Below, piece after piece: positions 6,473-29,354 of a stretch of DNA of 64,000 bases; the first letter of the stretch is position 1, and every line of letters begins with the position of its first letter. The stretch covers positions 93,307 to 157,306 of IMG/VR virus record IMGVR_UViG_3300025723_001543, one strand, 5' to 3'. The position numbers and the translations under genes were made by a program. The stretch is from a virus. Lineage: Duplodnaviria; Heunggongvirae; Uroviricota; Caudoviricetes. The notes beneath the pieces are model-generated. The model searched no databases, was not told the DNA's origin, and saw only the letters and a list, made by a program, of their open reading frames with translations.

Positions 6473-8263
6473 TTATGATACTGGAGTTATAAGGACAACA
6501 ATTTTACTATAATCTATCTTTAAAAATTTGCTTTCATTTACTGTAATATCTGCAGCATTTGGCTTTGCATAAAAATCAACAGATTGGCTATAATTATAAG
6601 GGTTGATATCAAGCTGAACATCACCAGTTGTATAATTTACAGTACCAATACTTGGGTTCAAAATAACTCTATTCCCAGTCGAAGATGTATAACAAAGTCT
6701 TAGATTGCCTACACCATCATCCGTGATAAGAACATTTTGAAATAATGTCATTCCTTGAGCATATGAGAACAAACTACTCTGGAATATTTCTGGCTCACCA
6801 TTATTGTAAATATATTTTAAAGGTCTATAAAGAGCATTAGAGAAAGAAAAATTAATTCTCTGTGTTCTACCTTTTATAGGAGTAGTTTTATAGATCATTC
6901 TTATTGCAGTATCGTTACTTACAATAGAAGGGTCTGAAGAATCTATCATTGCCATCAATTTTGATTTTCTAAAATCGCTACCAAATTCTGTAAGATGATC
7001 ATTATCATAATTTTGTATAGAATTTGTAACATCAGTTATTAATTGATTGGATGTTTTGTGAGTTAATTTGGGGTCATAGATTACACTGGCAACAACTCTA
7101 ACATACAAATATTCTGGATCATATATTAATGGTACAGTTGTCATTGTTTTAGTTAAAAGAAAATTAATAATTGATTGTTTTAATTGTGAAGATATAAAAG
7201 GAATTGAACCATATGGAATTGGTGTTATAATTACTTTTCCGTATTGTGGAGGAACAGCATTTTCACCGCCATATACGCCAACAGTTTTAATCTGTGGAAA
7301 TTGATTTCTAACGAGTGTTATAAAATCATCTTTTGTAACACCTCTGTCCTGAGTAGTGAAGTGTCTAGGAGAATAAAATTTTATAGAATTGATATCTTCT
7401 CTTTCAGAACCATCCATAGCCACAATGTTTGTGGTAACAGCTACATCATACATATCATTTATTCTTCTGGAAACAGTAAAGTTAGAAACTTTATTTCCCA
7501 AATCACCATTTGTTGATCTATAATCAACTTTTACTATATTGCCATTTGTCAATGCCTTTGATACAATTCCATCACCAAATACAACTTCATATTGGTTTTC
7601 TTTGTATCCTTGCAAGAAATATACTTCAGAATTGGCAGTCAATCCAAGAAGACTTTCTGAATAAGCATATACATTATTAGCGGAATCTGTGTTAGAATTG
7701 ATGACTGTTACTATGATACTATTTGTATCAATATTTTCAGACTGAAGTACATAATTTGAACCATCAGTAACTGTAAAATATTCTGTTACAATTTTTCCTT
7801 CATATACATATATTGGTCCAGTAGAATATACGCCATTTCTATTAAATACGATTATATCTTCATCTGTAGTAAACTCAAGATTTACTTGATTGATAGTTGA
7901 TCTAATAGAATAATATTGTGGAATCATAACTGATGCTGGTGTATCAGCGCCTGTATTAATTGTTAGTGTAACCAAAGCTCTTGCAGATGTTCTAGAACGT
8001 GGAAGATAATTTAATTCTTTGGCATGTGAAACGACAGATTCTTTTAATTGAGCAGTGTCAAGAAACATTTCGCTTCCTACCATATTCAGATAGAAAGCAT
8101 CAATATATGTGTTATATGAAAGAACGTCTAGTAATTCACTGAGATTAGAACCTTCAAAATCATAATCTTTAAACTCAGTTTTCGCCTTGAGAAATGATTT
8201 TAGATTTTGTTTGATGCCATCAAAACTAGCTTCTGAAACTGAAAGAAATCCTGTGTTTGCCAT
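6473..8263 (-). CDS. 6: baseplate wedge protein gp6
   Basis: N-terminus IKQNLKSFLKAKTEFKDYDFEGSNLSELLDVLSYNTYIDAFY...NYLPRSRTSARA aligns with T4 gp6 (IKQNLIEWLNGQNEFLDYDFEGSRLNVLCDLLAYNTLYIQQF...GYLPTSKSAAQ). Confidence 0.85.
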   Translation of the reverse strand: MANTGFLSVSEASFDGIKQNLKSFLKAKTEFKDYDFEGSNLSELLDVLSYNTYIDAFYLNMVGSEMFLDTAQLKESVVSHAKELNYLPRSRTSARALVTLTINTGADTPASVMIPQYYSIRSTINQVNLEFTTDEDIIVFNRNGVYSTGPIYVYEGKIVTEYFTVTDGSNYVLQSENIDTNSIIVTVINSNTDSANNVYAYSESLLGLTANSEVYFLQGYKENQYEVVFGDGIVSKALTNGNIVKVDYRSTNGDLGNKVSNFTVSRRINDMYDVAVTTNIVAMDGSEREDINSIKFYSPRHFTTQDRGVTKDDFITLVRNQFPQIKTVGVYGGENAVPPQYGKVIITPIPYGSIPFISSQLKQSIINFLLTKTMTTVPLIYDPEYLYVRVVASVIYDPKLTHKTSNQLITDVTNSIQNYDNDHLTEFGSDFRKSKLMAMIDSSDPSIVSNDTAIRMIYKTTPIKGRTQRINFSFSNALYRPLKYIYNNGEPEIFQSSLFSYAQGMTLFQNVLITDDGVGNLRLCYTSSTGNRVILNPSIGTVNYTTGDVQLDINPYNYSQSVDFYAKPNAADITVNESKFLKIDYSKIVVLITPVS

Positions 8264-8264
8264 A

Positions 8265-8681
8265 TTATCTTACTCTTCTTAATAAAACATCTAGAGTTAC
8301 TGGATTGATATTATTTAACACAGAAAATATAATTGAAGCAGAATACATGTTTTGATCTGGCAATGCCTTCACAGAAACATTAATAAGATTGGCTCTTGGT
8401 TCGTAGTTCGTTATTACTTCTTTTATTTTTTCTTTTATCAAAAATTCTGTGTCTTGAGTAATATTTTCAAATAAATATGCCTTAAGACCAGCACCTATAT
8501 TGGGGCTAAAAAATCTTTCGTATGGCTCAGTAAACATTAAATTTATAATAGAACGTTTTACTGCGTTTTCATTAGTCAATAGTATTAGATCACCCTTTAC
8601 TGGGTGTATTATAAAATTAGTAGTGAGGTCTGAATAGAGTGTCTGTGTTGTCATTTTATTATTTATAATGATGTTCTGCAA
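8265..8681 (-). CDS. 25: baseplate wedge protein gp25 (lysozyme-fold sheath initiator)
   Basis: 138 aa. LYSDL...FENIT...NYEPRANLINVSV matches the T4 gp25/GPW family pattern (LYSDI...FENMT...NYEPRIDKLAVNV). Confidence 0.8.
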   Translation of the reverse strand: MQNIIINNKMTTQTLYSDLTTNFIIHPVKGDLILLTNENAVKRSIINLMFTEPYERFFSPNIGAGLKAYLFENITQDTEFLIKEKIKEVITNYEPRANLINVSVKALPDQNMYSASIIFSVLNNINPVTLDVLLRRVR

Positions 8682-10573
8682 GTTTGAAGGAATTGTGGAT
8701 TATATCTTTGAATATCATTTGCAGCAGATGATGCTAATTTCCAACCATCAGAAATAGGTTTAGAACCAAATGGACTGAAAGATTCGCCAGAAATAGCTGC
8801 ACTCATTCCTATTACAAAAGGTATTGCATTATCTGAACGTCTCATTTCTATAGATGCATTCGTTTTAACATTTAATATATTGCATACATTGCCTATCATA
8901 GTCTGCATACTTTTTCCAAAATATGTGCTTGTATCTGGTATAGAAGATGAACCAGTCACCATTTTTGATACTACAGAACCTATATCCATAGCTCCACCAA
9001 AAGATGCAAAGTTCTGCATACCAAATGAGTCAGCACCAGTTCCACCAGTGGGATTGCCAAATGATCCTACTTTTCTGCAAAATAGTTGATCTACAGCTGG
9101 AAGAGCGCATGGGGTTTCGCCAAAAAATGCTTTACCAGCATAAGATGGCGGTCTAAGAGTTGGGTTATTGGCAATTTTTTGTGTTGGAATTCTAGTACCT
9201 GTAATTAGTTCTGACATAAAATTGCCAATTGCTAAACCACCTGTTTGCTGTAAAAGTGGGCCAGCCGCAACACCACCAAGCGCACCAAATTGGCTAAGGA
9301 CACCACCAAGAGGAGAAGCACTTAATAAATTTTGAACAGCACCTACACCAATTTGTGTGGCTATCTGAGCAATGCTTCCTGAAGGATTTGTCAAAGCAGT
9401 TGCGCCAAGACCTATAGAAGAACCGGATGCAAGTTGAATTGCAGAAGCAATAGCATTACTTATGGAACTAGAAGAAAGATTTGGGGCATTACTAAGTACG
9501 CCAATATTTCCATTTAAATTAGAAGCGGCTGAAAGTATAACTGGTCCAAGAACGCCTAATGACATAGCAAGATCACTTGACCTTTGCACATTACCAAAAC
9601 TTGTATTATATGGGTTTGCTGCTGGTTGGCTACTTAAATAAAGACTTGAATATGTATTAATAATTGATGATAATGCATTAGCAAGATAAGCAACTTTATA
9701 AATGTCACTCAATGCAAGTATTCCTCTAATATTTCTTATGTAATTTTGATCTTCTAGTTCTGGAATACCAACAACCTGTGATATATGAACCATGTCAGAA
9801 GGATTTTCTATTGCGGCTAATACGTAAAAGAATTTTTCTAAAACATCAAATGGAACAACACCATATGATGCCAATTCTCTAGATTTTTTATCTATAGCGG
9901 TTTTTTCTATATCCGTCAAAAAATAACTTGATGTGTTTGATGATGAAGTTGGGAGACGAACATAATTTGGTGGGGCAGTTTTTTTCTGTAAAATGCCAGC
10001 AAACCCAGCAACAGCTGAACACATATTAACAGCTTTGCCAAATGCAGCATCAGAATTCTTCATAGATTGATCACCAAAGAAACCAGGATTGCTATATACA
10101 CCAACTTGTGTTAAAGCAGCCGTATCTTTGTTCATATTTGGTTTTGAAGAACTGCCAGTGGAATTGCCATTTGTATCAAATTGTGGTTGACTTGAATTTG
10201 GTGCTGGAGTACTATCACCGGATTTTAAATCAGAAACATCATTAGTAGAAGTTAATTTTGAATTAAAATAATTTTGAGCTGGCATAGAATTGTCAGCTGC
10301 AGCATCGGCAGTCGGCAACGAATAATTTGTAGTGGGTGCATTATACCCAGTGGTGACTGTAGGATTGGCTACATTTGTACTATAAAAATTTTGAGAGCCA
10401 GTTGAATTATATGAATAATTTGTACTTGGTGCATTAACATTAGTAATATCAGTTGTAACTGATGGATTGGCTACATTTGTACTATAAAAATCTTGTGCTG
10501 GCATAGAATTATCAGCAACCGTCTCTGCACTATTAGGAGCATTGAATCCAGTAATTGAAAAATTATTAGGCAT
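8663..10573 (-). CDS. S/T/N/G-rich structural protein with N-terminal tandem peptide repeats (function unknown, baseplate operon)
   Basis: 636 aa low-complexity protein. Repeats FYSTNVANP(S/T)VTT and MPAQ(D/N)(F/Y) are encoded by imperfect DNA duplications at about 10270-10530. Confidence 0.4.
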   Translation of the reverse strand: MPNNFSITGFNAPNSAETVADNSMPAQDFYSTNVANPSVTTDITNVNAPSTNYSYNSTGSQNFYSTNVANPTVTTGYNAPTTNYSLPTADAAADNSMPAQNYFNSKLTSTNDVSDLKSGDSTPAPNSSQPQFDTNGNSTGSSSKPNMNKDTAALTQVGVYSNPGFFGDQSMKNSDAAFGKAVNMCSAVAGFAGILQKKTAPPNYVRLPTSSSNTSSYFLTDIEKTAIDKKSRELASYGVVPFDVLEKFFYVLAAIENPSDMVHISQVVGIPELEDQNYIRNIRGILALSDIYKVAYLANALSSIINTYSSLYLSSQPAANPYNTSFGNVQRSSDLAMSLGVLGPVILSAASNLNGNIGVLSNAPNLSSSSISNAIASAIQLASGSSIGLGATALTNPSGSIAQIATQIGVGAVQNLLSASPLGGVLSQFGALGGVAAGPLLQQTGGLAIGNFMSELITGTRIPTQKIANNPTLRPPSYAGKAFFGETPCALPAVDQLFCRKVGSFGNPTGGTGADSFGMQNFASFGGAMDIGSVVSKMVTGSSSIPDTSTYFGKSMQTMIGNVCNILNVKTNASIEMRRSDNAIPFVIGMSAAISGESFSPFGSKPISDGWKLASSAANDIQRYNPQFLQTCRTSL

Positions 10574-12398
10574 TTGATCTTCCTCCTAATGCAGCTACTG
10601 CATATTGTAATTGAAGACCGGGAACACTTGATTGGCATTTTGGATCAGAACATGTTAGAATAGTTCCTCCACCAGAACCACCCGGTTGTGCTGATTCTAC
10701 ATGTACATGAATGCCGGGGCTATCATTTTTTTCTAATAAAATTTTGCTGTATGGAAGATTATCTCTTACAAATGCGGCAATTTCAGCAGTTGTTTGAACG
10801 TCTGGTTTATTAGAACAACGTAGATCGACTGCGCCGCCCTTAATATGATTGCCAGAATTACTTCTATACCATGAAGTAATCTGCATTCTTGCACCATATT
10901 TCTCAATGATTGGATCGATTATGTTCCATGCAACATTCATAGCTTCTATAATAACTGCTTTTTGCTGACCAGCTGGTACTGATCTTAGTCCAAGAACTTG
11001 GCCTATAGTAACATGCTTTGATATTTTTTCGTTTGTATTATAAATTGATGCTGGAACTGGTAATGGATTTTTTTCAGCTTTTCCATTTGCAGCAGCACCA
11101 GAAGGTTTATCATATGTGCTTGGATTTGGTGGTTGCATAGTGTCACCGCCTGAAATTTCTGGTGGCGCACCGGCACCTTGATTTGGTGCTGCAGATGCTT
11201 CAGCTTTTGGATTTGGTGTATTACCTTCATTCTTATATACAGAGAATTCGCCTTTGGACATTCTCTTGGCATTTTTTGGAAAATCAGGTGCTTCACGAAC
11301 AGAGGTCATATTATCAATAATAGTTTCTGCAGGAGCATATTGTGCCTGTGGCGCTTCAACAACATCAGCTGCAGTGCCGGGAGCAACAGGACTTGGAGTA
11401 CCAGCATCAATATCAGTGAATGGACTTCTATAGTCAGCATTTCCACTAGAATGAATTGACATAGTATCTTGACCAGATATTTTAACAGCTCCAGCTGCTT
11501 TGGTATCCATCTTTCCGTTTGTTTCTATACTCAAATCGTTCTTAGATACAACAGTAAATTTTCCTTTGTTGTTCTGAGTAAAATTTCCTTCTGTTCTGGT
11601 AAGATAATTTCCTTTTACATCTTGTGTAAAATCAATCTTGGATTGAACTATCATATTTTTATATGTTTGAAAAACTGTATTAGCATCAGAACGTGTAGTA
11701 AAATCTTTCTTCACATCTATAGTTTTGCTACCAGAAACTTGTGTACGCATATTTCCTGCAACAGTTAATCTATTATCACCACCAACAGTATGACTTAAAT
11801 CTTTGACAACTTCTGTTACTTTTGCACCATCTGTAAATTCTTCTATCGATCCTTCAACATATGTGTGCATATCACCTTTAACATGAAGAGAAAATGCACC
11901 ACCAACATTCATATCAAGATCGCCATCAGTTTCGATAGTCATTTTTCCATCTGCTTTTAAAATAAGATGGTTCTTGGCAAATATTGTTCCGTCGCCTTTT
12001 GGAGATATTATACCAACACCTTTCTTACCAGTAGAAACAATATGAATTGACCCGTCAGCATCAATCATTATTGTTGCACCCGAATGATGTTGAATAACAA
12101 TATTATCAGAACCAAAAGTATTATCAATCATGACTCTGTTTCCAGTAGCAGAAACAAACCCTTGCATATCAGTTGATTTACCTACACCCACAGATATGCC
12201 AGCTCCCGGTCCTGTATGCGTTATTGTTGTATCAGAAGCATGACCGGGTTTTTCTTTTACAGAAACTTCATAATATGGAATTGGATTGCCAGTTCCATCT
12301 ATATGTTGAGGCGAAGTACTTCTGCTAAGTCCATTGCCTTCTCTATTAGTAATTTTTTTAATATAAGCTGGATCATTTGTAAATTTATCTATTGACAT
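10566..12398 (-). CDS. central spike beta-helix protein with C-terminal M15 (VanY/D-Ala-D-Ala carboxypeptidase-like) peptidase domain; gp5 C-terminal analog
   Basis: Middle region has 8-residue beta-helix-like repeats (VMIDNTFGSDNIVIQHHSGATIMIDADGSIHIV...DMNVGGAFSLHVKGD). C-terminus carries SWYRSNSGNHIKGGAVDL ... GIHVHVE (His/Asp/His zinc ligands typical of peptidase M15). Confidence 0.6.
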   Translation of the reverse strand: MSIDKFTNDPAYIKKITNREGNGLSRSTSPQHIDGTGNPIPYYEVSVKEKPGHASDTTITHTGPGAGISVGVGKSTDMQGFVSATGNRVMIDNTFGSDNIVIQHHSGATIMIDADGSIHIVSTGKKGVGIISPKGDGTIFAKNHLILKADGKMTIETDGDLDMNVGGAFSLHVKGDMHTYVEGSIEEFTDGAKVTEVVKDLSHTVGGDNRLTVAGNMRTQVSGSKTIDVKKDFTTRSDANTVFQTYKNMIVQSKIDFTQDVKGNYLTRTEGNFTQNNKGKFTVVSKNDLSIETNGKMDTKAAGAVKISGQDTMSIHSSGNADYRSPFTDIDAGTPSPVAPGTAADVVEAPQAQYAPAETIIDNMTSVREAPDFPKNAKRMSKGEFSVYKNEGNTPNPKAEASAAPNQGAGAPPEISGGDTMQPPNPSTYDKPSGAAANGKAEKNPLPVPASIYNTNEKISKHVTIGQVLGLRSVPAGQQKAVIIEAMNVAWNIIDPIIEKYGARMQITSWYRSNSGNHIKGGAVDLRCSNKPDVQTTAEIAAFVRDNLPYSKILLEKNDSPGIHVHVESAQPGGSGGGTILTCSDPKCQSSVPGLQLQYAVAALGGRSNA

Positions 12399-12401
12399 TT
12401 A

Positions 12402-12782
12402 TTACCCACAAAAATTTCTGTAAAGAGCTGTTAAAGATTGTTCTAGTTTATCATTATCACTTGTGATAGTTGCGCTATCATATTTTCTAGAAAGTTCTTT
12501 TATAGCTTTATATAGAGTTAGCTTTTGAGGCTCACTCATGTAAAAAGTTGATTCTAATCTGTAAGCTTTCTCATTTATAAATTTATCAGACCCACCAATT
12601 ATAGTTACGGAAGCAGAATCGCCAGATACAGAACCAGAAGAATATATTTCACCATTTACAGCAATAACATATCCGTCTGTTGCATATTGTTCTAAATCAA
12701 CTGCTTCATTTCTTAGAGTATTTGAAAAATTTACAGCCAAATTTTTATGATATGAAATTGTGCCGGGAGACATTAATATCAT
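12402..12782 (-). CDS. hypothetical protein between the two gp5-like genes
   Basis: ORF only (126 aa). Confidence 0.3.
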   Translation of the reverse strand: MILMSPGTISYHKNLAVNFSNTLRNEAVDLEQYATDGYVIAVNGEIYSSGSVSGDSASVTIIGGSDKFINEKAYRLESTFYMSEPQKLTLYKAIKELSRKYDSATITSDNDKLEQSLTALYRNFCG

Positions 12783-13753
12783 GATGTTGAAGCTCCATCA
12801 AATGACATAGAAGCTAAAATATTTCTAGCATTCCCCAATTTTCTAGTATAACTTGCCCCAGTTCTATCAACAGTCCATACGCCGCCTATTTTCTTATAAG
12901 AATCATCTCTCTCAAAGTAAATAATTGCTGCAACAGAATCTTGAATTGTGGTAGATGCAAGTAATTTAGAATATGCTGTTCTTTCTGAAGTATGCAATTC
13001 ATGCCACATAAAATCTAATTGTTTTTCTAAAGGAGGAAGATTTGGTGGAAGAACTGGTGAATTTATGCCACAGAATTTTAATAGTGGCGTATATCGATCA
13101 TACTTCCCTGCTCTCCATTGAGCAATACCATATGATGGTTCGCCTTTATCATTTCCATTATATGCTTGCGGATTGATATTTTTACCAGATTCTCCTTGCA
13201 AATTACCACAAATAGCTGATACAATACATTTTAAATCACCAGAATATGAACCTTCTTCTTTCAACTTTTGCCAAAAATAATTATAAACTTTTTGTGTATT
13301 GCTTCCACCAGTCAATTGAGTTGTTGTTGGTGCGCCTGTATCTCCAGTAGAATTTGCTGCTGATGCAGCTGCAGAAGGATTTGACGAATTTTGAGTTGGG
13401 TCTGAACTGGAAACATTTGAATTTTGTGCTGGCGAAGAATTGATAGATTCCATACCACCATTTATTACACCTATAACTATTGGTTGTTGTGAATCAATAC
13501 CATCAAAAAAGAATCCAACTACCCAAGAACCTGGGGTCAAATTATGACTAGCATTTCCACCACCAGTCTGTCCACCAGTAGTTGGATACAAAACTAAAGC
13601 CCATGGCAGATCACCATCAGAAACTCTTTCAACATCTTCAGTATGGTGAATTCCAAATATTCGAACTCTAACTCGTGATCTATCGTCGCCAATATCTTTG
13701 ACTACACCAACAAACCATCTAAATCTATCACCATAAAAATCATCAGCTATCAT
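12779..13753 (-). CDS. 5: gp5-like baseplate hub protein: N-terminal OB-fold + lysozyme-like (lytic transglycosylase-type) domain, lacking the beta-helix
   Basis: RFRWFVGVVKDIGDDRSRVRVRIFGIHH...LPWALVLYPTTGGQ aligns with T4 gp5 N-terminus (NWFVGVVEDVMDP...RVRVRVFGLHP...LPWAQVLLPTTG). Downstream ES...YGIAQW resembles the SLT/lysozyme catalytic motif. Confidence 0.65.
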   Translation of the reverse strand: MIADDFYGDRFRWFVGVVKDIGDDRSRVRVRIFGIHHTEDVERVSDGDLPWALVLYPTTGGQTGGGNASHNLTPGSWVVGFFFDGIDSQQPIVIGVINGGMESINSSPAQNSNVSSSDPTQNSSNPSAAASAANSTGDTGAPTTTQLTGGSNTQKVYNYFWQKLKEEGSYSGDLKCIVSAICGNLQGESGKNINPQAYNGNDKGEPSYGIAQWRAGKYDRYTPLLKFCGINSPVLPPNLPPLEKQLDFMWHELHTSERTAYSKLLASTTIQDSVAAIIYFERDDSYKKIGGVWTVDRTGASYTRKLGNARNILASMSFDGASTS

Positions 13754-15123
13754 TGAATAGTCCCACCACCAGTATCATATTCACTTTTTTCATTAAGTTT
13801 TGTTAAATAACCATCTTTATTAATTCTTAAAGTTGTGGCTACCCTGTTTCCTGCACTCATTACTTGTTTTACTTCAGAAATAATAAAAAATCCAGATATA
13901 TATTTGTCTTGCTGAACATCATTAAACCCATGCATTTCTGGAATTTCACACCATATTATTTGTCCAGCTTTTAATTTCATATTTGCAGGAACAGTTATGC
14001 TAAAATCAACTTGATTTAATGCGTACATATATTTAGTGGCATTGCCAAATTTATAACGGTATTGTGGCTGAGTTTTGTTTTGTTCATTTAAATCTTCATA
14101 GTTATTAATTATATAACGTATCCTATTAGAATATTCAGTTTTGTCTACCTGATTTTTTACATAGTCGATGTATGGATCGGTATTCAAAGGATATTTTTCT
14201 AAATGATTTGGACCTGTTTCTTTTTCAAGTTCTGTAGGAGTACTATTATAATTTTTTTGTAAAAGACTTATTTCAAATAATTCATTTTGATAATATCCAC
14301 CAGCAATTTTTTCAATTGAAGAAAATCTTTTATTATTTACGATGTTTGAAATATAATAAAGATCGGCATCTGGAGTTGCATTTGTATCAGAAAATCCAGA
14401 TTCAACATCGGAAATATAACGATATTTTGTTTTTTGTATAGTATCTCTTTGTTTCCATGCATCTTCTATTAATTTTTGAATTGTCAAAAAATTAAACCCT
14501 TGATTATCTTCATAAAAAAGATAAAGAAAATGATTTTCATAATCTCTTGCAACAGCATGTTTTGCCAACCATTGAATTGCTTGAAATGGTCTAAGATTTG
14601 GCACAACAATATTTCTTACCTTCAAAGATTCTTCTATAGTAAATGGTTTTGTTTTTAAAAATTTTGTCTGTGTGTCTGCCATAATATATTCATTGTATAA
14701 ATTTTGAGCCATATTTTCTACAAGATCATTATAAGCATGTGAAACAAGTTTTCTTACATTTTGTAGAAACTCAACACTAACCAAATCAATGATAAACATC
14801 ATTCCTCTAGCTCTATCATCAAGAGCAATATCTCTCACAGCTTTGATAATAAATTGCATATTACCAGTATCTTTTTCGACAGAAGAAATACCAGATTTTT
14901 GCTTGTATTCAATACTTATTATTTCTTCCCCTGTAAATGGATAGTTAACAAATAATCCAATATTATCATTTATTAAAAGCTCTGCTTTCATGACGGGTTC
15001 AAAAATAGATTGATATATAGACAATTCGACAAACTGAGGCATTAAGCTCATTTCGTCATTACCATTAAATTTTTTAATTTTTAATTTTGAAATTTCTATT
15101 TCAAGAGGATTTAAATTACTCAT
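13750..15123 (-). CDS. baseplate hub protein, gp27-like (by position upstream of gp5-like; weak)
   Basis: 457-aa ORF translationally coupled to the gp5-like gene. No specific motif recognised. Confidence 0.4.
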   Translation of the reverse strand: MSNLNPLEIEISKLKIKKFNGNDEMSLMPQFVELSIYQSIFEPVMKAELLINDNIGLFVNYPFTGEEIISIEYKQKSGISSVEKDTGNMQFIIKAVRDIALDDRARGMMFIIDLVSVEFLQNVRKLVSHAYNDLVENMAQNLYNEYIMADTQTKFLKTKPFTIEESLKVRNIVVPNLRPFQAIQWLAKHAVARDYENHFLYLFYEDNQGFNFLTIQKLIEDAWKQRDTIQKTKYRYISDVESGFSDTNATPDADLYYISNIVNNKRFSSIEKIAGGYYQNELFEISLLQKNYNSTPTELEKETGPNHLEKYPLNTDPYIDYVKNQVDKTEYSNRIRYIINNYEDLNEQNKTQPQYRYKFGNATKYMYALNQVDFSITVPANMKLKAGQIIWCEIPEMHGFNDVQQDKYISGFFIISEVKQVMSAGNRVATTLRINKDGYLTKLNEKSEYDTGGGTIQ

Positions 15124-15676
15124 TAATTAAAGCTTCAAATTGTTGCCTAAATTCATTTACATATGGTTGTCTTAGCAATTTGATATTTCTTTTTGCTTCG
15201 TTTTTTTCATTTTCAACATCATATATGCTCTTTGCAACCCATCCAGCTGGATATCCAAGCATTTGATATGTGTTTGGGGTCATCGTATAATTATATGCTG
15301 CAATTGTTTCTGGTGTATCAGATGATAACCCCTGATAATAATAGTATGCAATAGAAGAAGGTATAACAATAGAAGTTAATTTATCTGCACTAACATTATA
15401 TTTGTCTTCTAGATAATTAATAAAATTGCCATAGTCCATTGGCCAAGAAGTATATGGGTCTATCATATTATTTGACATATAGATAATCCAATCTAAAGAT
15501 GAATCATCATATTCTTTATATGCAATAATATCAGGTCTTTCACCTTCCATAACTAGATAATCATAAAATTTTTCATATGAATTTCTATATGTCTGAATCA
15601 AAGCAACTCTAGACAATAAATTTATACATGACATATTATTGTATATTATTTTTGGAAAATATTTAAAAGAAGACAT
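15116..15676 (-). CDS. 53: baseplate wedge protein gp53
   Basis: RPDIIAYKEYDDSSLDWIIYMSNNMIDPYTSW resembles T4 gp53 (RPEELANAIYGNPQLYWVLLMCNDNYDPYYGW). Confidence 0.55.
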   Translation of the reverse strand: MSSFKYFPKIIYNNMSCINLLSRVALIQTYRNSYEKFYDYLVMEGERPDIIAYKEYDDSSLDWIIYMSNNMIDPYTSWPMDYGNFINYLEDKYNVSADKLTSIVIPSSIAYYYYQGLSSDTPETIAAYNYTMTPNTYQMLGYPAGWVAKSIYDVENEKNEAKRNIKLLRQPYVNEFRQQFEALINE

Positions 15677-15679
15677 ATG

Positions 15680-16456
15680 TTATGGACCTGATGTAGATGT
15701 AGATGATACAAAATCATCTCTTGTTTGAATGTTTATTTCTTGAAAAGATATATTCATTTCTACTATAGCAGATTTCCCATCTTTATAGAATGCAGGAGTT
15801 CCTCCAGCAGAACTATTTACTGTAAACCCAGTAATAAAAGAAGTTTTTACATTAGGAAGAATATTATTATCTCCAACATTAAAACTTAATTCTGCAAGAT
15901 ATGGATATTCAAGAGCAAATCCGCCACCAATTATTCTTGGATGCATGAACCCTTTAATATTAGTTATAATATTTTCTAAAGCAATTGCTTCTGCCTGTGA
16001 TCTAGGAGACATTTTCCATGTAAAAGAATAACTTTTTAATTTTACACCATTAAAAATGTTTGTATGGTGAGGATTTCTTACCATACCAGTTTCAGCTTGA
16101 GCAAGTTTTCCGATAATAGAATCAGAAACTCCCGGCATAATTGCAGCTGCTTGTAAAGAAGCATCTTTAATAAAAGCAAGCGCACCTTTGCCTGCACGAA
16201 TTTCGTTGGCATATGCTTCCATTTTGCTTTTTCCGGCCATAAGAACATCAGAAGGCGTATTTCCCAAAATATCTAAAGCCACATCACCAACATCCATGTT
16301 AAATTGATCTTGAAGACTTGAAGGCAAAGGAAGACGAATAATGCCATCAAAATTTTGAGATGCTTTGACTCCCGGTCTTGGTCTAACATATTTTTTAAAC
16401 ATGATCCTACAGCAATAAATAGGAACTTCTTCTGGAAAACTTAGAGATACAAACAT
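15680..16456 (-). CDS. baseplate protein, possibly tube-initiator family (gp48/gp54-like)
   Basis: First gene of the minus-strand baseplate operon, downstream of a late promoter. Weak C-terminal resemblance to tube-initiator proteins. Confidence 0.3.
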   Translation of the reverse strand: MFVSLSFPEEVPIYCCRIMFKKYVRPRPGVKASQNFDGIIRLPLPSSLQDQFNMDVGDVALDILGNTPSDVLMAGKSKMEAYANEIRAGKGALAFIKDASLQAAAIMPGVSDSIIGKLAQAETGMVRNPHHTNIFNGVKLKSYSFTWKMSPRSQAEAIALENIITNIKGFMHPRIIGGGFALEYPYLAELSFNVGDNNILPNVKTSFITGFTVNSSAGGTPAFYKDGKSAIVEMNISFQEINIQTRDDFVSSTSTSGP

Positions 16457-16503: not shown

Positions 16504-16947
16504 ATGGCATACAAAGGAAAATTTAAACCTGATAGACCAGAAAAATATAAAGGCGATCCTACGAAAATTGTGTATCGTAGCCTTTGGGAATTAAAATTTA
16601 TGCGTTATTTGGATTCCCATCCTAATGTAATATCATGGTCTTCAGAAGAAATTATTGTACCGTATATAAGCCCTATGGATAATAAAATTCATAGATACTA
16701 TCCAGATTTTTGGGTAAAAACTAAAGATAATAACAACAACATAAATACTATGTTAGTAGAAATAAAGCCCATGTATCAAGTTGTGGCACCTATAGTTCAA
16801 AAAAATATGACAAAAAGATATCTTACAGAAGTAAAAACATATGCTATAAATTCTGCCAAATGGAAAGCAGCACAAGAATTTTGTTCAAATAGGAAATGGA
16901 TATTTAAAATAATGACCGAAAAAGAACTTGGAATAGGGAAAAAATAA
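16504..16947 (+). CDS. head completion protein gp4-like (PD-(D/E)XK-like motif PDFW...VEIK)
   Basis: 147 aa, similar in size and position to T4 gene 4 (divergent from gene 53). PD...EIK motif present. Confidence 0.35.
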   Translation: MAYKGKFKPDRPEKYKGDPTKIVYRSLWELKFMRYLDSHPNVISWSSEEIIVPYISPMDNKIHRYYPDFWVKTKDNNNNINTMLVEIKPMYQVVAPIVQKNMTKRYLTEVKTYAINSAKWKAAQEFCSNRKWIFKIMTEKELGIGKK

Positions 16948-18285: not shown

Positions 18286-18978
18286 ATGGCATTACCGAAA
18301 ATTAAACATCCTACTTATAAAATTACTATACCATCAAACAAAAAAGAAGTAAATTTTCGTCCTTTTACAGTACAAGAAGAAAAGCTTCTTCTTATGGCTA
18401 AGAATTCAGAAATTACTGAAGATATCATTAACACTGTAAGACAAGTTATTCAGAATTGTATTATTGAACCTATTGATGTTGAAAAACTTGCCATTTTTGA
18501 TATTGAATATATTTTTATTAAACTTAGGTCAAAATCAGTTGGAGAAATTGTTGAACTAGAATACATTGATCCTGAAACAAATGAAAATGTAAAGTTTAAG
18601 GTAAATTTAGAAGATATTGAAGTAAAGAGAGACGAAAAACATACTAATAAGTTTCCTCTTTTTGAGAATATTGGTGTCGTTATGCGGTATCCAACTCTTG
18701 ATGAAATCAAGGCAGTTGAAGATGCTGGTAAAGATGAAGCAGTATTTACTATGTTATTGAAATGTATCGACACAATTTATGACGATGAAACAGTATATTC
18801 TGATTATTCTGAGAAGGAATTGAAAGATTTTATTGATTCTCTTCCTATGGAAAGTATGGGAGCAATTCAAACTTTCTTTGAAACAATGCCTTCTGTTGAA
18901 CATACAGTAACACTAAAGAATAAACAAGGTGAGACTAAGGAAGTTGTATTAAAAGGAATTAATAGTTTTTTTACATAA
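18286..18978 (+). CDS. tail assembly chaperone (G-like), immediately upstream of tape measure
   Basis: 230-aa acidic protein ending at a T7 run (18966-18972). A -1 ORF continues to 19163 and overlaps the TMP start: classic G/GT arrangement. Confidence 0.5.
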   Translation: MALPKIKHPTYKITIPSNKKEVNFRPFTVQEEKLLLMAKNSEITEDIINTVRQVIQNCIIEPIDVEKLAIFDIEYIFIKLRSKSVGEIVELEYIDPETNENVKFKVNLEDIEVKRDEKHTNKFPLFENIGVVMRYPTLDEIKAVEDAGKDEAVFTMLLKCIDTIYDDETVYSDYSEKELKDFIDSLPMESMGAIQTFFETMPSVEHTVTLKNKQGETKEVVLKGINSFFT

Positions 18979-19163
18979 TGGTGGGATATAATAATATTGC
19001 CACCTATTATAATACTCTGTTTTCTTTGATACAACATCATAAATACTCATTGACAGAAGTATATGAAATGTACCCATATGAGCGTGATCTATTCGTTGAA
19101 TTATTAATACAGCATCTAAGAGAACAAGAAGAAGAAAACAACAGAAGAAACACACATGGCTGA
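18966..19163 (+). CDS. -1 frameshift extension of chaperone (GT-like product), slippery site T TTT TTT at 18966-18972
   Basis: Frame -1 ORF YIMVGYNNIATYYN...NTHG* begins at the heptanucleotide and ends by overlapping ATG 19156 of the tape measure gene. Confidence 0.45.
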   Translation, partial: FFYIMVGYNNIATYYNTLFSLIQHHKYSLTEVYEMYPYERDLFVELLIQHLREQEEENNRRNTHG

Positions 19164-21402
19164 TTTAGGTAATTTAACGAAAAAAGTTGCAGGAAAAGTT
19201 GGTTCTGCAGCTATGACTGTAGGAAAAACAGCCGGGGGCGCAGTTGCTTCCGCTGGTAAAGCAGTTGGTGGCGTTGTTAGTTCTCTTGCTCAAGGTACGT
19301 TCAATACTATAAAAAGTGGTATTGTTCAATCTACAGGCATAAATGCATTACGCCCATCTAATGTTATTGGTGGTGTATTAGATTCTGTTGGTCTTGGAGC
19401 AATGAGACCAGCATTTGGTGGAGACCCAACACAAAAAGCGGCTGCACAAGCAGCAAATCGTGTTGTAGCACAAAACAATGCTAATACTTCTTTAAAACCA
19501 TTAGAAGAACTTCTTCAAAAACTTTTAACAATCAATGAAAAAATTCTTGAAAATACTAACTCTATGTTAAGTTATGCAAAGAAACAAAGTGGACTATTAG
19601 ATACTGCTAATGATCTTGTTAAAAAACAGATGCTACAAGATATTGAAAATGCAAGAGTAGCAGCTGGAAAAGGAAAAGTTGGCGTAGGCACACCAGCAAA
19701 CGATAATACTCCCGGCAAAAAGCCAGCTGAAGGTGGTTTTCTCAGTGGAATTTTAGGGAGTATTATGGGTGGTGCTGGAAGTCTTTTAAAAATGCTTGGT
19801 CCAATCGGAGAATTTTTAGGTTCAATTGGAAGAATATTTTTAAAACTTGGCAGATTTACTATGTTATTAAATCCATATGTTCTTGCAGCTGAAGTAATAT
19901 TATTGTCTCTTAAAGCAGAAGATTGGGCATCTTTTTTTGACAATATTGGTAAAATATTTGGTGCTCTTGCTGAAGGAAAATTTCTTGAAGCTTTTACAAG
20001 ATCAATGCTTTTACTTCCTGAATTAATACTTAGAGGACTGATGAGAATTGCAGAATATATACTTGAATTTTTTGGATTTGAAGACTTAGCAAAAAAATTA
20101 AGTAAATTTATTGATTCATTTGACTTATATGATATATTGGTAAATTCTTTTAAAGAAATTGTTGATGTTATAATGAATATTGGATCAATGCTTGTAGATG
20201 GTGCAAAATTTATAGGCAAAAAAATTGGCGGTGTAATATCTGGTGTATGGGATACTATATCAAATGCATTTGGCACATTATTTAAAGATATAACGGATGC
20301 ATTTGATGCTTTTTCTTCTGGTGATATAATCAAAGGAATAGTAAAGTTAGTTTATGCAATACCAGATGCTCTTATTCAATGGGTCGGAAGAGCATTAGCC
20401 ACTGTAGTAGATTTTTTTGGTGGTGCAGAAATGGCTAAAACCATTCGTAATTTCTTAGATAATTTTAATCTAACAGATACTATTCTTAAATTTTTTACAT
20501 CTGTAAAAGAATATGTAACTGATACTTTTGCTAGTGCTACCAAAGCATTTTCTGATTGGTGGAAAGATTTTCATCCAATTGATGACATGATTGGAACATT
20601 TAGTTCAATAAAAGATTGGATAACATCTAAATTTACTGACACTACCAAAGCATTTTCTGATTGGTGGAAAGATTTTCATCCAATTGATGACATGATTGGA
20701 ACATTTAGTTCAATAAAAGATTGGATAACATCTAAATTTACTGACACTACCAAAGCATTTTCACAATGGTGGGATAGTTTTTCAATAATTGATATTGTAC
20801 TTACGCCATTCAATTATTTAAAAGATACTGCAACAGCATTATTTGATAATCTTCAAAAATCAGTTGCAGATGTTCTTTCGTTTGATCTTGTCAAAAAAGT
20901 AAGTGATTCTATAAGTTCAGTAGTAAGCGGCGTTTGGGATTTCTTTAAAGCTTTGCCAAGCAAAGCTGTTGATTTAATTTCTGATTTGATTCCTGATAGT
21001 CTTAAAGGTTTTTTCAAATCTATGTTTGGTAGTTCAACCACACCAACAGCAACACCAACTACACCGCCAGTAACACAACCAAGAACAGCTCTTACTCCAC
21101 AATCGACGAGTAGAGTAATTCAAGAACGTGAAGACGCTTTTAATGCTACACCAACTGCAGCTAATGTTTCACCAGTTCCAACTGGAAGAGAGCAAGTATT
21201 CAATCAACAATCTGCACGTATGTCAGTTGATCAAGCAGCACCAACAGCTGTAATTATAAACAACAATAATAATAGCCCAAATATTGGAAGTTCTGGGCAA
21301 AATTCACTGCCCAGAACTTCGGGTGCAGTACAAACAGCTCCACAATCATCTCATATAGACAGAGCATTATATGGAGATACTTATGGAGCTGGTGTTCCTT
21401 AG
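19156..21402 (+). CDS. tail tape measure protein (gp29-like)
   Basis: 748 aa. Gly/Ala-rich N-terminal hydrophobic segment, long helical body, 35-aa tandem repeats, and a position after the chaperone with frameshift. Confidence 0.6.
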   Translation: MADLGNLTKKVAGKVGSAAMTVGKTAGGAVASAGKAVGGVVSSLAQGTFNTIKSGIVQSTGINALRPSNVIGGVLDSVGLGAMRPAFGGDPTQKAAAQAANRVVAQNNANTSLKPLEELLQKLLTINEKILENTNSMLSYAKKQSGLLDTANDLVKKQMLQDIENARVAAGKGKVGVGTPANDNTPGKKPAEGGFLSGILGSIMGGAGSLLKMLGPIGEFLGSIGRIFLKLGRFTMLLNPYVLAAEVILLSLKAEDWASFFDNIGKIFGALAEGKFLEAFTRSMLLLPELILRGLMRIAEYILEFFGFEDLAKKLSKFIDSFDLYDILVNSFKEIVDVIMNIGSMLVDGAKFIGKKIGGVISGVWDTISNAFGTLFKDITDAFDAFSSGDIIKGIVKLVYAIPDALIQWVGRALATVVDFFGGAEMAKTIRNFLDNFNLTDTILKFFTSVKEYVTDTFASATKAFSDWWKDFHPIDDMIGTFSSIKDWITSKFTDTTKAFSDWWKDFHPIDDMIGTFSSIKDWITSKFTDTTKAFSQWWDSFSIIDIVLTPFNYLKDTATALFDNLQKSVADVLSFDLVKKVSDSISSVVSGVWDFFKALPSKAVDLISDLIPDSLKGFFKSMFGSSTTPTATPTTPPVTQPRTALTPQSTSRVIQEREDAFNATPTAANVSPVPTGREQVFNQQSARMSVDQAAPTAVIINNNNNSPNIGSSGQNSLPRTSGAVQTAPQSSHIDRALYGDTYGAGVP
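20539..20772 (+). repeat. in-frame 105-bp tandem direct repeat (2 identical copies + partial third) inside the tape measure gene
   Basis: ACCAAAGCATTTTCTGATTGGTGGAAAGATTTTCATCC... recurs at 20539, 20644 and 20749, encoding TKAFSDWWKDFHPIDDMIGTFSSIKDWITSKFTDT x2.3. Confidence 0.85.
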
Positions 21403-25551: not shown

Positions 25552-26592
25552 ATGACAACCAAAATTTTCGTATCCCAAATAGATACAACACAGCCAGATG
25601 GATCAACAGCTTCTTCCAATTCAGTAATTCTTCTTACAGATACTGGTCCTATATGGAAACCACTTTCTGCTTTAAATTCTGTTGGTTATACTGGTTCGCA
25701 AGGAATTAATGGTTATTTTGGATCAGTTGGCTATCGAGGTTCGACTGGCGAAGTTGGTGTGCCGGGAACATCTGGTTACAAAGGTTCTGTCGGATATACT
25801 GGTTCGGCTGGAGTTGGGTATCAAGGTTCTGTAGGATACACTAGTTCTATTGGTTATACAAGTTCTGTAGGATATACTGGTTCACAAGGAACTACAGGGT
25901 ATTTTGGTTCATTAGGTTATACTGGTTATTTTGGTTCAGTTGGTTATCAGGGTTCTTTAGGAGTCGGTTATCAAGGTTCTGTTGGTTATCAAGGGTCAGC
26001 TGGTATAACAGGAATACTTGCACCATTTCCTTTTATCAATCTTTCTGATGTTGCAGACACAAATGGCAATCCATATACTGGCTATAATGATTTTGGTGGT
26101 TCATATGTCAGAGTAAAACCATCAAGAGACGGATTAGTTCTTGATCCAACAGTTGTATTGACTCCCAACATTACTGTAAATGTAGATTTTCATGGTAATC
26201 AACTTCAACATCCTGTGTTCAGCGGTTATTCAGAAAATGTAATAGATGATGGTCAACCGGGCGCTTCTCTATCTGCAAATCCATTGAATGGTAATGTAAT
26301 TAAAGCTACTCTCAATTCACCTATTACAACTATTACAATGACAAATGCTGGATTAATTTCTGGAAGATTATTTTCAGTAACATTTTTCTTGAAACAAGAT
26401 TCTACTGGTGGAAGAGTACTTGATTGGACAAATAATATCATCTATTGGTCAACAGGTGATGGTATTAATCAAAATACTGGTCCAATCCTTTCAACACAAC
26501 CATTTTATACTGATATTATAACTGTATATACATATGATGCTGGTGGTTCTTGGTATGGAATCATGGGTGCTAGAGGTTTCCCAACACCATAA
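25552..26592 (+). CDS. collagen-like (Gly-X-Y) tail fibre protein
   Basis: About 40 uninterrupted GXY triplets (GYTGSQGINGYFGSVGYRGSTGEVGVPGTSGYKGSVGYTGSAG...) followed by a 190-aa C-terminal globular region. Confidence 0.6.
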   Translation: MTTKIFVSQIDTTQPDGSTASSNSVILLTDTGPIWKPLSALNSVGYTGSQGINGYFGSVGYRGSTGEVGVPGTSGYKGSVGYTGSAGVGYQGSVGYTSSIGYTSSVGYTGSQGTTGYFGSLGYTGYFGSVGYQGSLGVGYQGSVGYQGSAGITGILAPFPFINLSDVADTNGNPYTGYNDFGGSYVRVKPSRDGLVLDPTVVLTPNITVNVDFHGNQLQHPVFSGYSENVIDDGQPGASLSANPLNGNVIKATLNSPITTITMTNAGLISGRLFSVTFFLKQDSTGGRVLDWTNNIIYWSTGDGINQNTGPILSTQPFYTDIITVYTYDAGGSWYGIMGARGFPTP

Positions 26593-28986: not shown

Positions 28987-28991
28987 ATAAA

Positions 28992-29354
28992 ATGGGTCAA
29001 TATCCTGTAGCAAGAATAGGTGATACAAGTGACCATGGCGGTGTCATTATATCATCGGGAACAAAGTACAGAGACAGTACTGATGGTAAATTGGTTTCTA
29101 GAGTTGGAGATTATCATAGTTGTCCAATTCCCGGTCATGGTGTCACTGCAATTATTACAGGGTCTCCTAAAGTAAGATCAGAAGGTTCACTTGTTGCAGC
29201 CATAACAAGTGTAACTGGATGTGGAGCAGCAATAAACAGTGGAAGTAAAACTACTACGGTTCCTATGCAAGGTGGTGGAGCAGGAAATGAAAATGCATTT
29301 ATTCTTGATAATAATGAACATGACCAGTTGAATGGTCCATCAGTAATGGGATAA
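28992..29354 (+). CDS. PAAR-repeat spike tip protein (gp5.4-like), free-standing in the fibre module
   Basis: Three PAAR-like repeats: PVARIGDTSDHGGVIISSG / VSRVGDYHSCPIPGHGVTAIITGSPKV / VAAITSVTGCGAAINSGS. Confidence 0.8.
   Translation: MGQYPVARIGDTSDHGGVIISSGTKYRDSTDGKLVSRVGDYHSCPIPGHGVTAIITGSPKVRSEGSLVAAITSVTGCGAAINSGSKTTTVPMQGGGAGNENAFILDNNEHDQLNGPSVMG

What the first reader, a model, noticed from the sequence alone, without database searches (positions are those of the whole stretch)
10566..13753. Cell-puncturing apparatus split into two genes with two different peptidoglycan hydrolase domains; PAAR tip encoded far away
The T4 gp5 architecture (OB-fold, lysozyme, beta-helix) is divided. 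The first gene, 12779-13753, carries the gp5 N-terminal OB-fold (RFRWFVGVV...RVRVRIFG...LPWALVLYPTTG) plus a lysozyme-like ES...YGIAQW domain and then stops. A separate 610-aa gene, 10566-12398, supplies the beta-helix and ends in an M15 metallopeptidase domain (SGNHIKGGAVDL...GIHVHVE). This domain is not present in T4 gp5. A 126-aa ORF sits between them. The PAAR sharpening protein is a free-standing gene in the fibre module (28992-29354), next to a GH19 endolysin. The spike therefore potentially delivers both a glycosidase and a peptidase, indicating modular exchange of the lytic warhead.
Basis: partly seen in the sequence, partly recalled or inferred. Interest (0 to 1): 0.6.

Follow-up and report, generated by a model that had tools for sequence, protein, structure and literature searches.

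The report
Split gp5 tail spike with extra peptidase
A T4-like phage encodes its cell-puncturing spike as three adjacent genes that carry a lysozyme-like domain and a zinc peptidase domain. The reading is correct, but the same layout already exists in sequenced cultured phages, so it is a well-supported ordinary variant rather than a new kind of device.

Summary

The intervening 126-aa ORF is a conserved gene. It is probably an Amidase_2-like domain that has lost its zinc ligands (hhalign 91%).

The cassette is conserved in at least 94 protein clusters from metagenomes. Rhizobium phage RHph_I1_18 has it gene for gene. Caulobacter phage Cr30 carries all four domains in one chain, followed by a PAAR gene. 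Melnitz and pf16 spike proteins, and more weakly a PA5oct PAAR protein, carry related peptidase domains on other spike parts. A split gp5 was published for phage PhiM9 in 2015.

Novelty is low: this is a new member of a known kind. Enzyme activity, virion presence and PAAR docking remain untested.

The parts
13750..15123 (-). 457-aa candidate hub protein in the gp27 position. It lies between the gp53-like gene and the OB/lysozyme gene, and its stop overlaps the ORF324 start (ATGA).
   Evidence: phrog_350 'tail protein' E 1.7e-63. The same position is conserved in RHph_I1_18, pf16, Cr30 and metagenomic relatives. No Pfam or PDB sequence hit, so gp27 identity is inferred from position only.
12779..13753 (-). 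ORF324, the gp5*-like half of the spike: an N-terminal OB domain, a low-complexity linker and a lysozyme-like domain.
13388..13729 (-). gp5-type OB domain of ORF324 (about residues 9-122).
   Evidence: Gp5_OB 25.5 bits. PDB spike 9f4a E 2.1e-9 and T4 gp5 E 5.4e-7.
12893..13276 (-). Phage_lysozyme2 (PF18013) domain of ORF324 (residues 160-287). The candidate catalytic residue is E188 in a conserved 'ES' motif.
   Evidence: 58.7 bits, E 9.5e-16. E188, S189, Q212 and W213 are invariant in an alignment of four sequences that includes Cr30 and RHph_I1_18.
12402..12782 (-). ORF126, a conserved small protein. It is probably an Amidase_2 (T7-lysozyme/PGRP-like) fold that has lost its zinc ligands (a pseudo-amidase).
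   Evidence: 57 representative clusters, nearly all of them stand-alone proteins of about 105-130 aa. The RHph_I1_18 homologue is 30% identical, E 1e-11. hhalign against an Amidase_2 alignment gives 91.1%, E 1e-6, and against T7 lysozyme 71.6%. Controls give 0.2-0.4%. PHROG 'amidase' hits 3 of 42 members, best E 1e-4. The AlphaFold model is poor, pLDDT 47.7.
10566..12398 (-). ORF610, the gp5C-like half of the spike: a clade-specific N-terminal 78 residues, the beta-helix, a conserved linker and a C-terminal LAS/M15 peptidase domain.
11364..12161 (-). Beta-helix region of ORF610 (about residues 80-345). It starts with the motif equivalent to T4 gp5 'ESGHIQEFDDTPG...'.
   Evidence: The profile hits T4 gp5 beta-helix structures at E 1.5e-6 to 2.5e-5 and VgrG at 1.3e-4. 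Local alignments to Cr30, Melnitz and pf16 place ORF610 residues 78-116 on the motif that begins their beta-helical regions, which by eye corresponds to T4 gp5 residues about 394-430. DUF2345 hits 23 of 23 members and Gp5_trimer_C 22 of 23.
10989..11363 (-). Linker of ORF610 (about residues 346-470). It is rich in P, A, G and N but carries strongly conserved motifs (R368, P371, F373, N376 and others).
   Evidence: Invariant columns in alignment A1. No family match.
10578..10973 (-). LAS-fold zinc peptidase domain of ORF610 (about residues 476-607), closest to MEROPS M15A. The candidate zinc ligands are H518, D525 and H564 or H566. E556 is the candidate catalytic acid. The cysteine pair C583/C588 is invariant.
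28992..29354 (+). Free-standing PAAR protein (120 aa), the presumed tip of the spike.
   Evidence: PF05488 51 bits, E 1.7e-13. It is the only PAAR-like ORF in a six-frame scan of the window.

Best explanation
The region encodes a gp5-type central spike complex of a T4-like myophage. The complex is written as three translationally coupled genes instead of one.

ORF324 supplies the OB domain that, in T4, seats the spike on the hub trimer. It also supplies a lysozyme-like (PF18013) glycan-cleaving domain.

ORF610 supplies the trimeric beta-helix needle. A conserved linker of about 125 residues follows, and then a LAS-fold (M15-type) zinc peptidase.

The gene break lies between the lysozyme-like domain and the start of the helix. 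T4 gp5 is cut in the same interval by proteolysis into gp5* and gp5C (Ser351/Ala352; my own knowledge of the T4 literature). The two halves are therefore expected to associate non-covalently, as in mature T4.

ORF126 sits between the two genes and is probably a zinc-less Amidase_2-like domain. Its likeliest role is structural, peptidoglycan-binding or regulatory within the complex.

On tail contraction the PAAR-capped needle would cross the outer membrane. The lysozyme-like domain would cut glycan strands and the peptidase would cut peptide stems or cross-links, opening the wall locally for the tail tube.

What is shown: the domain identities, conservation of catalytic-type residues, synteny, and the fused four-domain equivalent in Cr30. 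What is inferred: assembly, virion location, enzyme activity and specificity, PAAR docking, and the role of ORF126.
For: - Domain assignments.
- Catalytic-type residues are invariant across homologues down to 35% identity.
- The Cr30 gp242 chain of 701 aa contains OB, Phage_lysozyme2, beta-helix and the same peptidase domain, and a PAAR gene follows it. hhalign against the ORF610 family gives 99.1%.
- ORF324 aligns with Cr30 residues 1 to about 300. ORF610 residues 80-116 align with Cr30 322-356. The break therefore maps between the lysozyme-like domain and the helix.
- The order gp53 / hub candidate / OB-lysozyme (about 310 aa) / about 125 aa / helix-peptidase (about 600-660 aa) / gp25 / gp6 is conserved in RHph_I1_18 and in metagenomic contigs at 37-58% identity.
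- The four genes overlap or lie 3 nt apart.
- Melnitz places a PAAR gene directly after its helix-plus-peptidase gene. This shows that the extended helix and PAAR co-occur.
- A split gp5 is described in PhiM9/P10VF (PMC4621102).
Against: - There are no proteomic, structural or enzymatic data for any member of this clade.
- The beta-helix was not modelled. Single-sequence Pfam scores for it, and for M15, are below the curated cut-offs.
- The Gp5_OB score is only marginally above its cut-off.
- The hub candidate has no detectable similarity to gp27.
- A C-terminal extension of about 265 residues beyond the helix could obstruct the blunt end where PAAR proteins bind. How both fit is unknown.
- The N-terminal 78 residues of ORF610 have no counterpart in T4 or Cr30.
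- The peptidase bond specificity cannot be read from the fold.
Confidence: 0.75

Rival explanations
1. The C-terminal LAS domain is not a penetration enzyme. It might be a non-catalytic binding or structural cap, as Hedgehog-N is a non-peptidase LAS protein. Alternatively it might act at lysis rather than at entry.
For: Hedgehog-N is among the best sequence and fold matches. Pfam M15 scores are below the cut-off. No activity data exist. The phage also has a separate GH19-type endolysin.
Against: The His/Asp/His positions and the Glu equivalent to the Hedgehog and M15 catalytic acid are invariant across the family. The best fold match is a true peptidoglycan peptidase, followed by several phage endolysins. 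The domain is fused to spike proteins in several phages.
Confidence: 0.1
2. ORF324 and ORF610 do not form one spike. ORF610 might be the complete needle, docking through its own N-terminal 78 residues, while ORF324 is a separate hub-associated lysin. Alternatively the two might be different occupants of the hub.
For: OB and helix normally lie on one chain. ORF610 has a conserved N-terminal region of unknown fold. In PhiM9-like phages the OB and helix genes lie about 30 kb apart. Stenotrophomonas phage DLP6, which has the closest gp6, has only a 305-aa gp5-like gene.
Against: Cr30 has all four domains in one chain in the same order. The genes are adjacent and coupled throughout the clade. From my own knowledge, T4 gp5 functions as two non-covalently bound fragments after cleavage.
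Confidence: 0.1
3. The split was caused by insertion of ORF126 as a selfish or mobile gene into a once-continuous gp5 gene.
For: ORF126 sits exactly at the break. Cr30, which lacks it, has a continuous gene.
Against: ORF126 has no nuclease or intein features. Its only profile similarity is to Amidase_2. It is conserved at this position down to 22-30% identity, including in RHph_I1_18. Melnitz is split without it.
Confidence: 0.04
4. The split is an assembly or sequencing artefact, or a pseudogene.
For: None found.
Against: An identical protein is recorded on 13 independent contigs, and the four shown carry the same gene layout. There are 94 homologous clusters of nearly constant length. The cultured phage RHph_I1_18 has the same three genes.
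Confidence: 0.01

Closest known systems
Rhizobium phage RHph_I1_18 (MN988519), genes EVB91_042/041/040
   Same: The cassette and its neighbours match gene for gene: a 300-aa Phage_lysozyme2 protein that aligns with all of ORF324 at 38% identity, OB-region residues conserved (its Gp5_OB Pfam match did not reach E 0.05), a 116-aa ORF126 homologue, and a 635-aa helix plus M15-like protein. The C-terminal domain matches the model at TM 0.86 (the 635-aa target is presumed to be this protein).
   Different: Identity is only 30-40%. The host is a soil alphaproteobacterium. No PAAR was found within the 16 kb examined. Both large genes are annotated only as 'baseplate hub subunit and tail lysozyme', and no paper was found.
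Caulobacter phage Cr30 gp242 with PAAR gp243
   Same: The same four domains occur in the same order: OB, Phage_lysozyme2, beta-helix and LAS peptidase. It has a PAAR partner.
   Different: It is one 701-aa chain. It has no ORF126 homologue and no counterpart of the ORF610 N-terminal 78 residues. PAAR is the next gene rather than 15 kb away.
T4 gp5 / gp5.4 (PDB 1k28, 1wth, 4ku0)
   Same: OB domain, a glycan-cleaving domain, a triple-stranded beta-helix and a PAAR cap. The mature protein is two fragments, with the cut between the lysozyme domain and the helix (my own knowledge). The OB and helix are homologous.
   Different: T4 has one gene with a T4-lysozyme-type domain and no C-terminal peptidase, and PAAR is encoded nearby. 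Here there are separate genes, a PF18013-type lysozyme-like domain, an added LAS peptidase and an added pseudo-amidase gene.
Sinorhizobium phage PhiM9 / Rhizobium phage P10VF split gp5 (PMC4621102)
   Same: This is a published case of gp5 divided into an OB protein and a beta-helix protein. The helix part is homologous to ORF610 residues 85-353.
   Different: The two genes are far apart in those genomes. No peptidase domain was detected on the helix protein, because the matches stop at ORF610 residue 353.
Methylophilales phage Melnitz, Pseudomonas phage pf16 and PA5oct spike proteins
   Same: A related M15-like domain sits on central spike components.
   Different: Melnitz has OB plus a VanY-like domain, then helix plus peptidase, then an adjacent PAAR. 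pf16 has OB, a short helix and the peptidase in one 510-aa chain. In PA5oct the domain is on a PAAR protein, and the similarity is weak (E 4e-3).
Evolved VgrG spikes of type VI secretion (for example V. cholerae VgrG-3) and phi29 gp13 (my own knowledge, not tested here)
   Same: VgrG-3 is a needle protein with a C-terminal peptidoglycan-degrading domain, used with PAAR. phi29 gp13 combines a lysozyme-like domain with a LAS (M23) peptidase at a tail tip.
   Different: These are different machines and lineages. Only the beta-helix (DUF2345/VgrG) similarity was measured here.

Membership tests
T4 gp5-type central spike | N-terminal OB domain homologous to gp5 | tested here: met
   Gp5_OB 25.5 bits against a cut-off of 25. 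PDB gp5-type spikes E 2e-9 to 5e-7. PHROG hub/lysozyme families E 1e-22 to 1e-29.
T4 gp5-type central spike | C-terminal triple-stranded beta-helix | tested here: inconclusive
   Sequence homology to the gp5/VgrG helix is significant with a profile (E 1.5e-6). It is below the Pfam cut-off for the single sequence. The trimeric helix itself was not modelled.
T4 gp5-type central spike | All domains on one polypeptide that is later cleaved between lysozyme and helix | tested here: not met
   Two separate genes with a third between them. The break maps to the same inter-domain interval.
T4 gp5-type central spike | T4-lysozyme-type (GH24) domain between OB and helix | tested here: not met
   The domain is Phage_lysozyme2 (PF18013) instead.
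T4 gp5-type central spike | Sits on a gp27 hub trimer and is capped by a PAAR protein in the virion | not testable with these tools
   A hub candidate and a PAAR gene exist. Their contacts are unknown.
Peptidase M15 / LAS zinc peptidases | Hedgehog/DD-peptidase fold | tested here: met
Peptidase M15 / LAS zinc peptidases | His-x6-Asp plus a distal His as zinc ligands, and an acidic catalytic residue | tested here: met
   H518, D525, E556, H564 and H566 are invariant. H518, D525, E556 and H564 align with the matching residues of Sonic hedgehog N; numbering them there as H140, D147, E176 and H182 is from my own knowledge.
Peptidase M15 / LAS zinc peptidases | Score above a curated Pfam M15 cut-off | tested here: not met
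   Peptidase_M15_3 15.6 bits against 23.2. 19 of 23 homologues hit it, best E 3.9e-4. The subfamily is therefore unassigned.
Peptidase M15 / LAS zinc peptidases | Zinc-dependent cleavage of a peptidoglycan peptide bond | not testable with these tools
Phage_lysozyme2 (PF18013) | Profile score above the cut-off and a conserved catalytic Glu | tested here: met
   58.7 bits against 28.2. E188-S189 is invariant with Cr30 and RHph_I1_18. Assigning E188 as the catalytic residue is an inference.
PAAR | PAAR_motif profile above the cut-off | tested here: met
   51 bits against 27.
Amidase_2 (T7 lysozyme / PGRP) - for ORF126 | Profile similarity across the core of the fold | tested here: inconclusive
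   hhalign 91.1%, E 1e-6 over 72 columns against 10 Amidase_2 proteins. T7 lysozyme alone gives 71.6% and AmpD alone 2%. Pfam hits 2 of 42 members at E about 0.1. No confident model.
Amidase_2 (T7 lysozyme / PGRP) - for ORF126 | Zinc ligands (T7 H18, H123, C131 counting the initiator Met) | tested here: not met
   The aligned positions are variable or Asn/Asp/Ser in the ORF126 family, and the protein ends before the Cys position. It should not be filed as an active amidase.
GH19 endolysin (neighbour of PAAR) | Profile match | tested here: inconclusive
   Pfam Glyco_hydro_19 18.8 bits against 25.5. PHROG endolysin phrog_181 E 4e-74 and chitinase phrog_14712 E 6e-24.

The most novel reading that the evidence does not exclude
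ORF126 is a catalytically dead Amidase_2-fold protein that has become a dedicated part of the spike. It might be an adaptor holding the separately encoded OB/lysozyme and helix/peptidase trimers together, or a lid that keeps one of the enzymes silent until the spike is released. The spike would then combine three different peptidoglycan-hydrolase folds: one glycosidase, one peptidase and one pseudo-enzyme. [quoted passage not shown]
Probability: 0.25. Interest if true: 0.5.

Novelty: new member of a known kind. Interest (0 to 1): 0.3.

Why it matters
This is a clean natural example showing that the gp5 spike can be encoded in pieces, and that wall-degrading modules are swapped among the OB protein, the needle and the PAAR tip. 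T6SS spikes diversify their effectors in the same way.

Two questions become testable. First, how does a needle with a 265-residue C-terminal extension still accept a PAAR cap? Second, what does the small zinc-less amidase-like protein do? RHph_I1_18 carries the same cassette and Cr30 the fused version, and both are cultured, so the experiments are feasible.

The value is mainly better annotation. Many of these proteins are labelled only 'hypothetical' or 'baseplate hub subunit and tail lysozyme'.

Tried and rejected
- DNA-level search of the region against phage genomes found nothing.
- Single-sequence PDB searches did not detect the peptidase, the hub candidate or ORF636.
- The AlphaFold model of ORF126 was unusable (pLDDT 47.7), so no fold search was run on it.
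- The ORF126 profile against the PDB gave only chance-level hits.
- ORF126 is not related to T4 gp5.1 or to the DUF5675 protein that follows the pf16 spike.
- I considered that ORF610 begins with the 'FxDPxxxYP...TNR' post-OB motif seen at the start of the Melnitz helix protein (Gp5_OB positions 71-121). No ORF610-family member hits Gp5_OB, so this idea was dropped as unsupported.
- The PA5oct record note 'ESI-MS/MS' is not taken as proof of virion location, because ribonucleotide reductase carries the same note.
- A literature search for RHph_I1_18 found nothing. The Melnitz paper mentions the baseplate only once.
- No second PAAR gene exists near the spike genes, either in the window or in the two related loci scanned.
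Full report
**What is in the window**

The window comes from a low-GC (about 33%) T4-like myophage. A minus-strand operon encodes the following genes in order:
- a gp48-like tube cap (15680-16456)
- a gp53-like protein (15116-15676)
- a 457-aa 'tail protein' in the hub position (13750-15123)
- ORF324 (12779-13753)
- ORF126 (12402-12782)
- ORF610 (10566-12398)
- a 636-aa protein with no detectable relatives in the curated libraries (8663-10573)
- gp25 (8265-8681) and gp6 (6473-8263)

The hub candidate, ORF324, ORF126, ORF610 and ORF636 overlap by 4-8 nt or lie 3 nt apart. This fits co-translation of parts of one assembly.

**ORF324**

Residues 160-287 match Pfam Phage_lysozyme2 at 58.7 bits (cut-off 28.2). 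Gp5_OB matches residues 42-122 at 25.5 bits (cut-off 25). Solved gp5-type spikes match the N-terminus at E 2e-9 (9f4a) and 5e-7 (T4 gp5). An 'ES' motif (E188-S189) and Q212-W213 are invariant in an alignment with a clade relative, RHph_I1_18 and Cr30. The lysozyme-like module is not the T4-lysozyme type. Its other phage matches lie in tape-measure and tail-lysin proteins of staphylococcal phages.

**ORF610, helix part**

The single sequence is below Pfam cut-offs (Gp5_trimer_C 27.1 against 30.9). It matches PHROG hub/lysozyme families (phrog_430, E 3e-11). A database search returned 94 clusters of nearly constant length (581-696 aa for full-length members). A 23-sequence profile hits T4 gp5 beta-helix crystal structures at E 1.5e-6 to 2.5e-5 and VgrG at 1.3e-4. 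All 23 members hit DUF2345 and 22 hit Gp5_trimer_C.

Local alignments place ORF610 residues 78-116 (QGFVSATGNRVMIDNTFGSDNIVIQHHSGATIMIDADGS) on the conserved motif that begins the helix region in Cr30 (322-356), Melnitz and pf16. By eye, the corresponding T4 gp5 motif is ESGHIQEFDDTPGQERYRLVHPTGTYEEVSPSG, at residues about 394-430. The first 78 residues are conserved within the clade and have no counterpart elsewhere.

**ORF610, peptidase part**

Pfam alone is weak (Peptidase_M15_3 E 0.018). In the family alignment R512, H518, G521, A523, D525, E556, N558, H564, H566, C583 and C588 are invariant. A profile of the last 175 residues finds Sonic hedgehog N-domains (LAS fold) at E 1.2e-3. That alignment places H518 and D525 on the two N-terminal zinc ligands, E556 on the catalytic Glu and H564 on the third ligand.

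AlphaFold2 with an 18-sequence alignment gave pLDDT 91.5 and pTM 0.87. The fold searches then gave:
- Foldseek against the PDB: one significant hit, the Streptomyces albus zinc D-Ala-D-Ala carboxypeptidase 1lbu (E 2.4e-3, probability 1.00).
- BFVD: 25 matches at E <= 1e-3. Almost all of the named ones are 'Peptidase M15A/M15' or 'Gp5 N-terminal OB-fold domain-containing' proteins.

The domain is therefore a LAS/M15-type zinc peptidase fold with an intact ligand set. Subfamily and bond specificity stay open.

**ORF126**

ORF126 is not filler. It has 27 close homologues and 57 representative clusters, nearly all of them stand-alone proteins of about 105-130 aa. The 116-aa gene at the same place in RHph_I1_18 is 30% identical (E 1e-11).

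No curated family matched and the model was poor (pLDDT 47.7). The sequence pattern suggested Amidase_2, so I tested that directly:
- hhalign of a 42-sequence profile against T7 lysozyme gave 71.6%.
- Against E. coli AmpD alone it gave 2%.
- Against two unrelated small spike-adjacent proteins it gave 0.2-0.4%.
- Against an alignment of T7 lysozyme, eight other diverse phage amidases and AmpD it gave 91.1%, E 1e-6 over 72 columns.
- 'Amidase' is the most frequent PHROG hit among members (3 of 42, best E 1e-4). Amidase_2 ties for the most frequent Pfam hit (2 of 42).

The zinc ligands of T7 lysozyme are not conserved at the aligned positions. My reading, at about 65% confidence for the fold, is a pseudo-amidase. 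Its role is unknown. A structural, wall-binding or enzyme-masking role is an inference. Phage 812 offers a precedent: its weld protein has an inactive CHAP-fold clip domain, and its lid domain covers a hub peptidase site (PMC13433997).

**PAAR and GH19**

ORF 28992-29354 matches PAAR_motif at E 1.7e-13. It is the only PAAR-like ORF in a six-frame scan of the window. The gene 5 nt upstream (28363-28986) is below the Pfam GH19 cut-off but matches PHROG endolysin phrog_181 at 4e-74. Both lie between a tail-fibre-like gene and a collagen/C1q fibre gene.

**Comparison with other phages**

- Rhizobium phage RHph_I1_18 has the same genes in the same order. Its two large genes are both annotated 'baseplate hub subunit and tail lysozyme'.
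- Metagenomic contigs at 37% and 58% identity keep the full order from gp53 to gp8.
- Caulobacter phage Cr30 gp242 (701 aa) carries OB, Phage_lysozyme2, helix and the same peptidase domain in one chain, followed by a PAAR gene (hhalign 99.1%).
- Melnitz has an OB protein with a weak VanY-like match, then a helix protein with the peptidase domain, then PAAR.
- pf16 has OB, a short helix and the peptidase in one 510-aa chain.
- PA5oct has a PAAR protein whose C-terminus matches weakly (E 4e-3). Its record calls it a muramoyl-pentapeptidase.
- Stenotrophomonas phage DLP6, with the closest gp6 (42%), has only a 305-aa gp5-like gene.
- Johnson et al. [quoted passage not shown]

**Mechanism**

By homology with T4 (my own knowledge of Kanamaru et al. 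2002 and Shneider et al. 2013), the OB trimer seats on the hub, the helix is the needle and PAAR sharpens it. T4 gp5 is cleaved between its lysozyme domain and its helix, and the fragments stay together until infection.

Here the break between genes falls in the same interval. ORF324 aligns with Cr30 residues 1 to about 300, and the ORF610 helix motif aligns with Cr30 322-356. A non-covalent (ORF324)3-(ORF610)3 complex is therefore the simplest model.

Two enzymes with intact catalytic-type residues would attack glycan and peptide parts of the wall. The conserved linker between helix and peptidase suggests ordered packing rather than a loose tether. That packing may be how the tip stays free for PAAR. 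All of this is inference.

**Verdict**

The feature is ordinary for a sizeable clade of non-Tevenvirinae T4-like phages, and it is already present in deposited and annotated genomes. The only addition beyond the known pattern is the probable pseudo-amidase identity of the middle gene.

Noticed in passing
window 8663-10573 (-): A 636-aa protein lies directly after the spike genes and overlaps the ORF610 stop by 8 nt. It has no Pfam, PHROG or PDB match. It has a Ser/Asn/Thr-rich repetitive N-terminus and long Gly/Ala/Ser/Leu-rich hydrophobic stretches. A gene of 506-636 aa holds this position in the four clade contigs and the two more distant relatives examined, one copy being called at 551 aa. 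It could be an ejected or membrane-active protein. Unexplained.
   Followed up: partly
window 28363-29354 (+): A GH19-type endolysin gene sits 5 nt upstream of the PAAR gene, inside a late fibre module. This is an unusual place for an endolysin. Whether it is a virion or PAAR-associated enzyme rather than the lysis enzyme was not tested.
   Followed up: no
window 25552-26592 and 29359-31530 (+): These are two fibre-like proteins with long collagen triple-helix repeats (GYxGSxG). The second ends in a C1q domain (Collagen E 9e-42, C1q E 1e-9).
   Followed up: no
window 10578-10650 (-), ORF610 residues 583-588: An invariant Cys pair (TC-x-DP-x-C) follows the peptidase core in all 23 homologues. 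It could be a disulfide or an extra metal site. It is absent from Cr30.
   Followed up: no
L007 2413-3453 (Melnitz 'OB domain protein'): The Melnitz OB protein carries a weak VanY-type (M15B) match at residues 229-282 (E 1.1e-4, below the cut-off). Melnitz may therefore have two LAS peptidases and no lysozyme on its spike.
   Followed up: partly
window 16504-16947 (+): The gp4-like head-closure protein also gives weak PHROG endonuclease hits. Its counterparts in related contigs are tagged with Pfam Tn7_TnsA-like_N.
   Followed up: no
window 19156-21402 (+) and 18286-18978 (+): A 748-aa tape-measure-like protein and a baseplate hub protein (phrog_150; T4_baseplate in relatives) are encoded divergently from the spike operon. 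RHph_I1_18 has the same layout.
   Followed up: no
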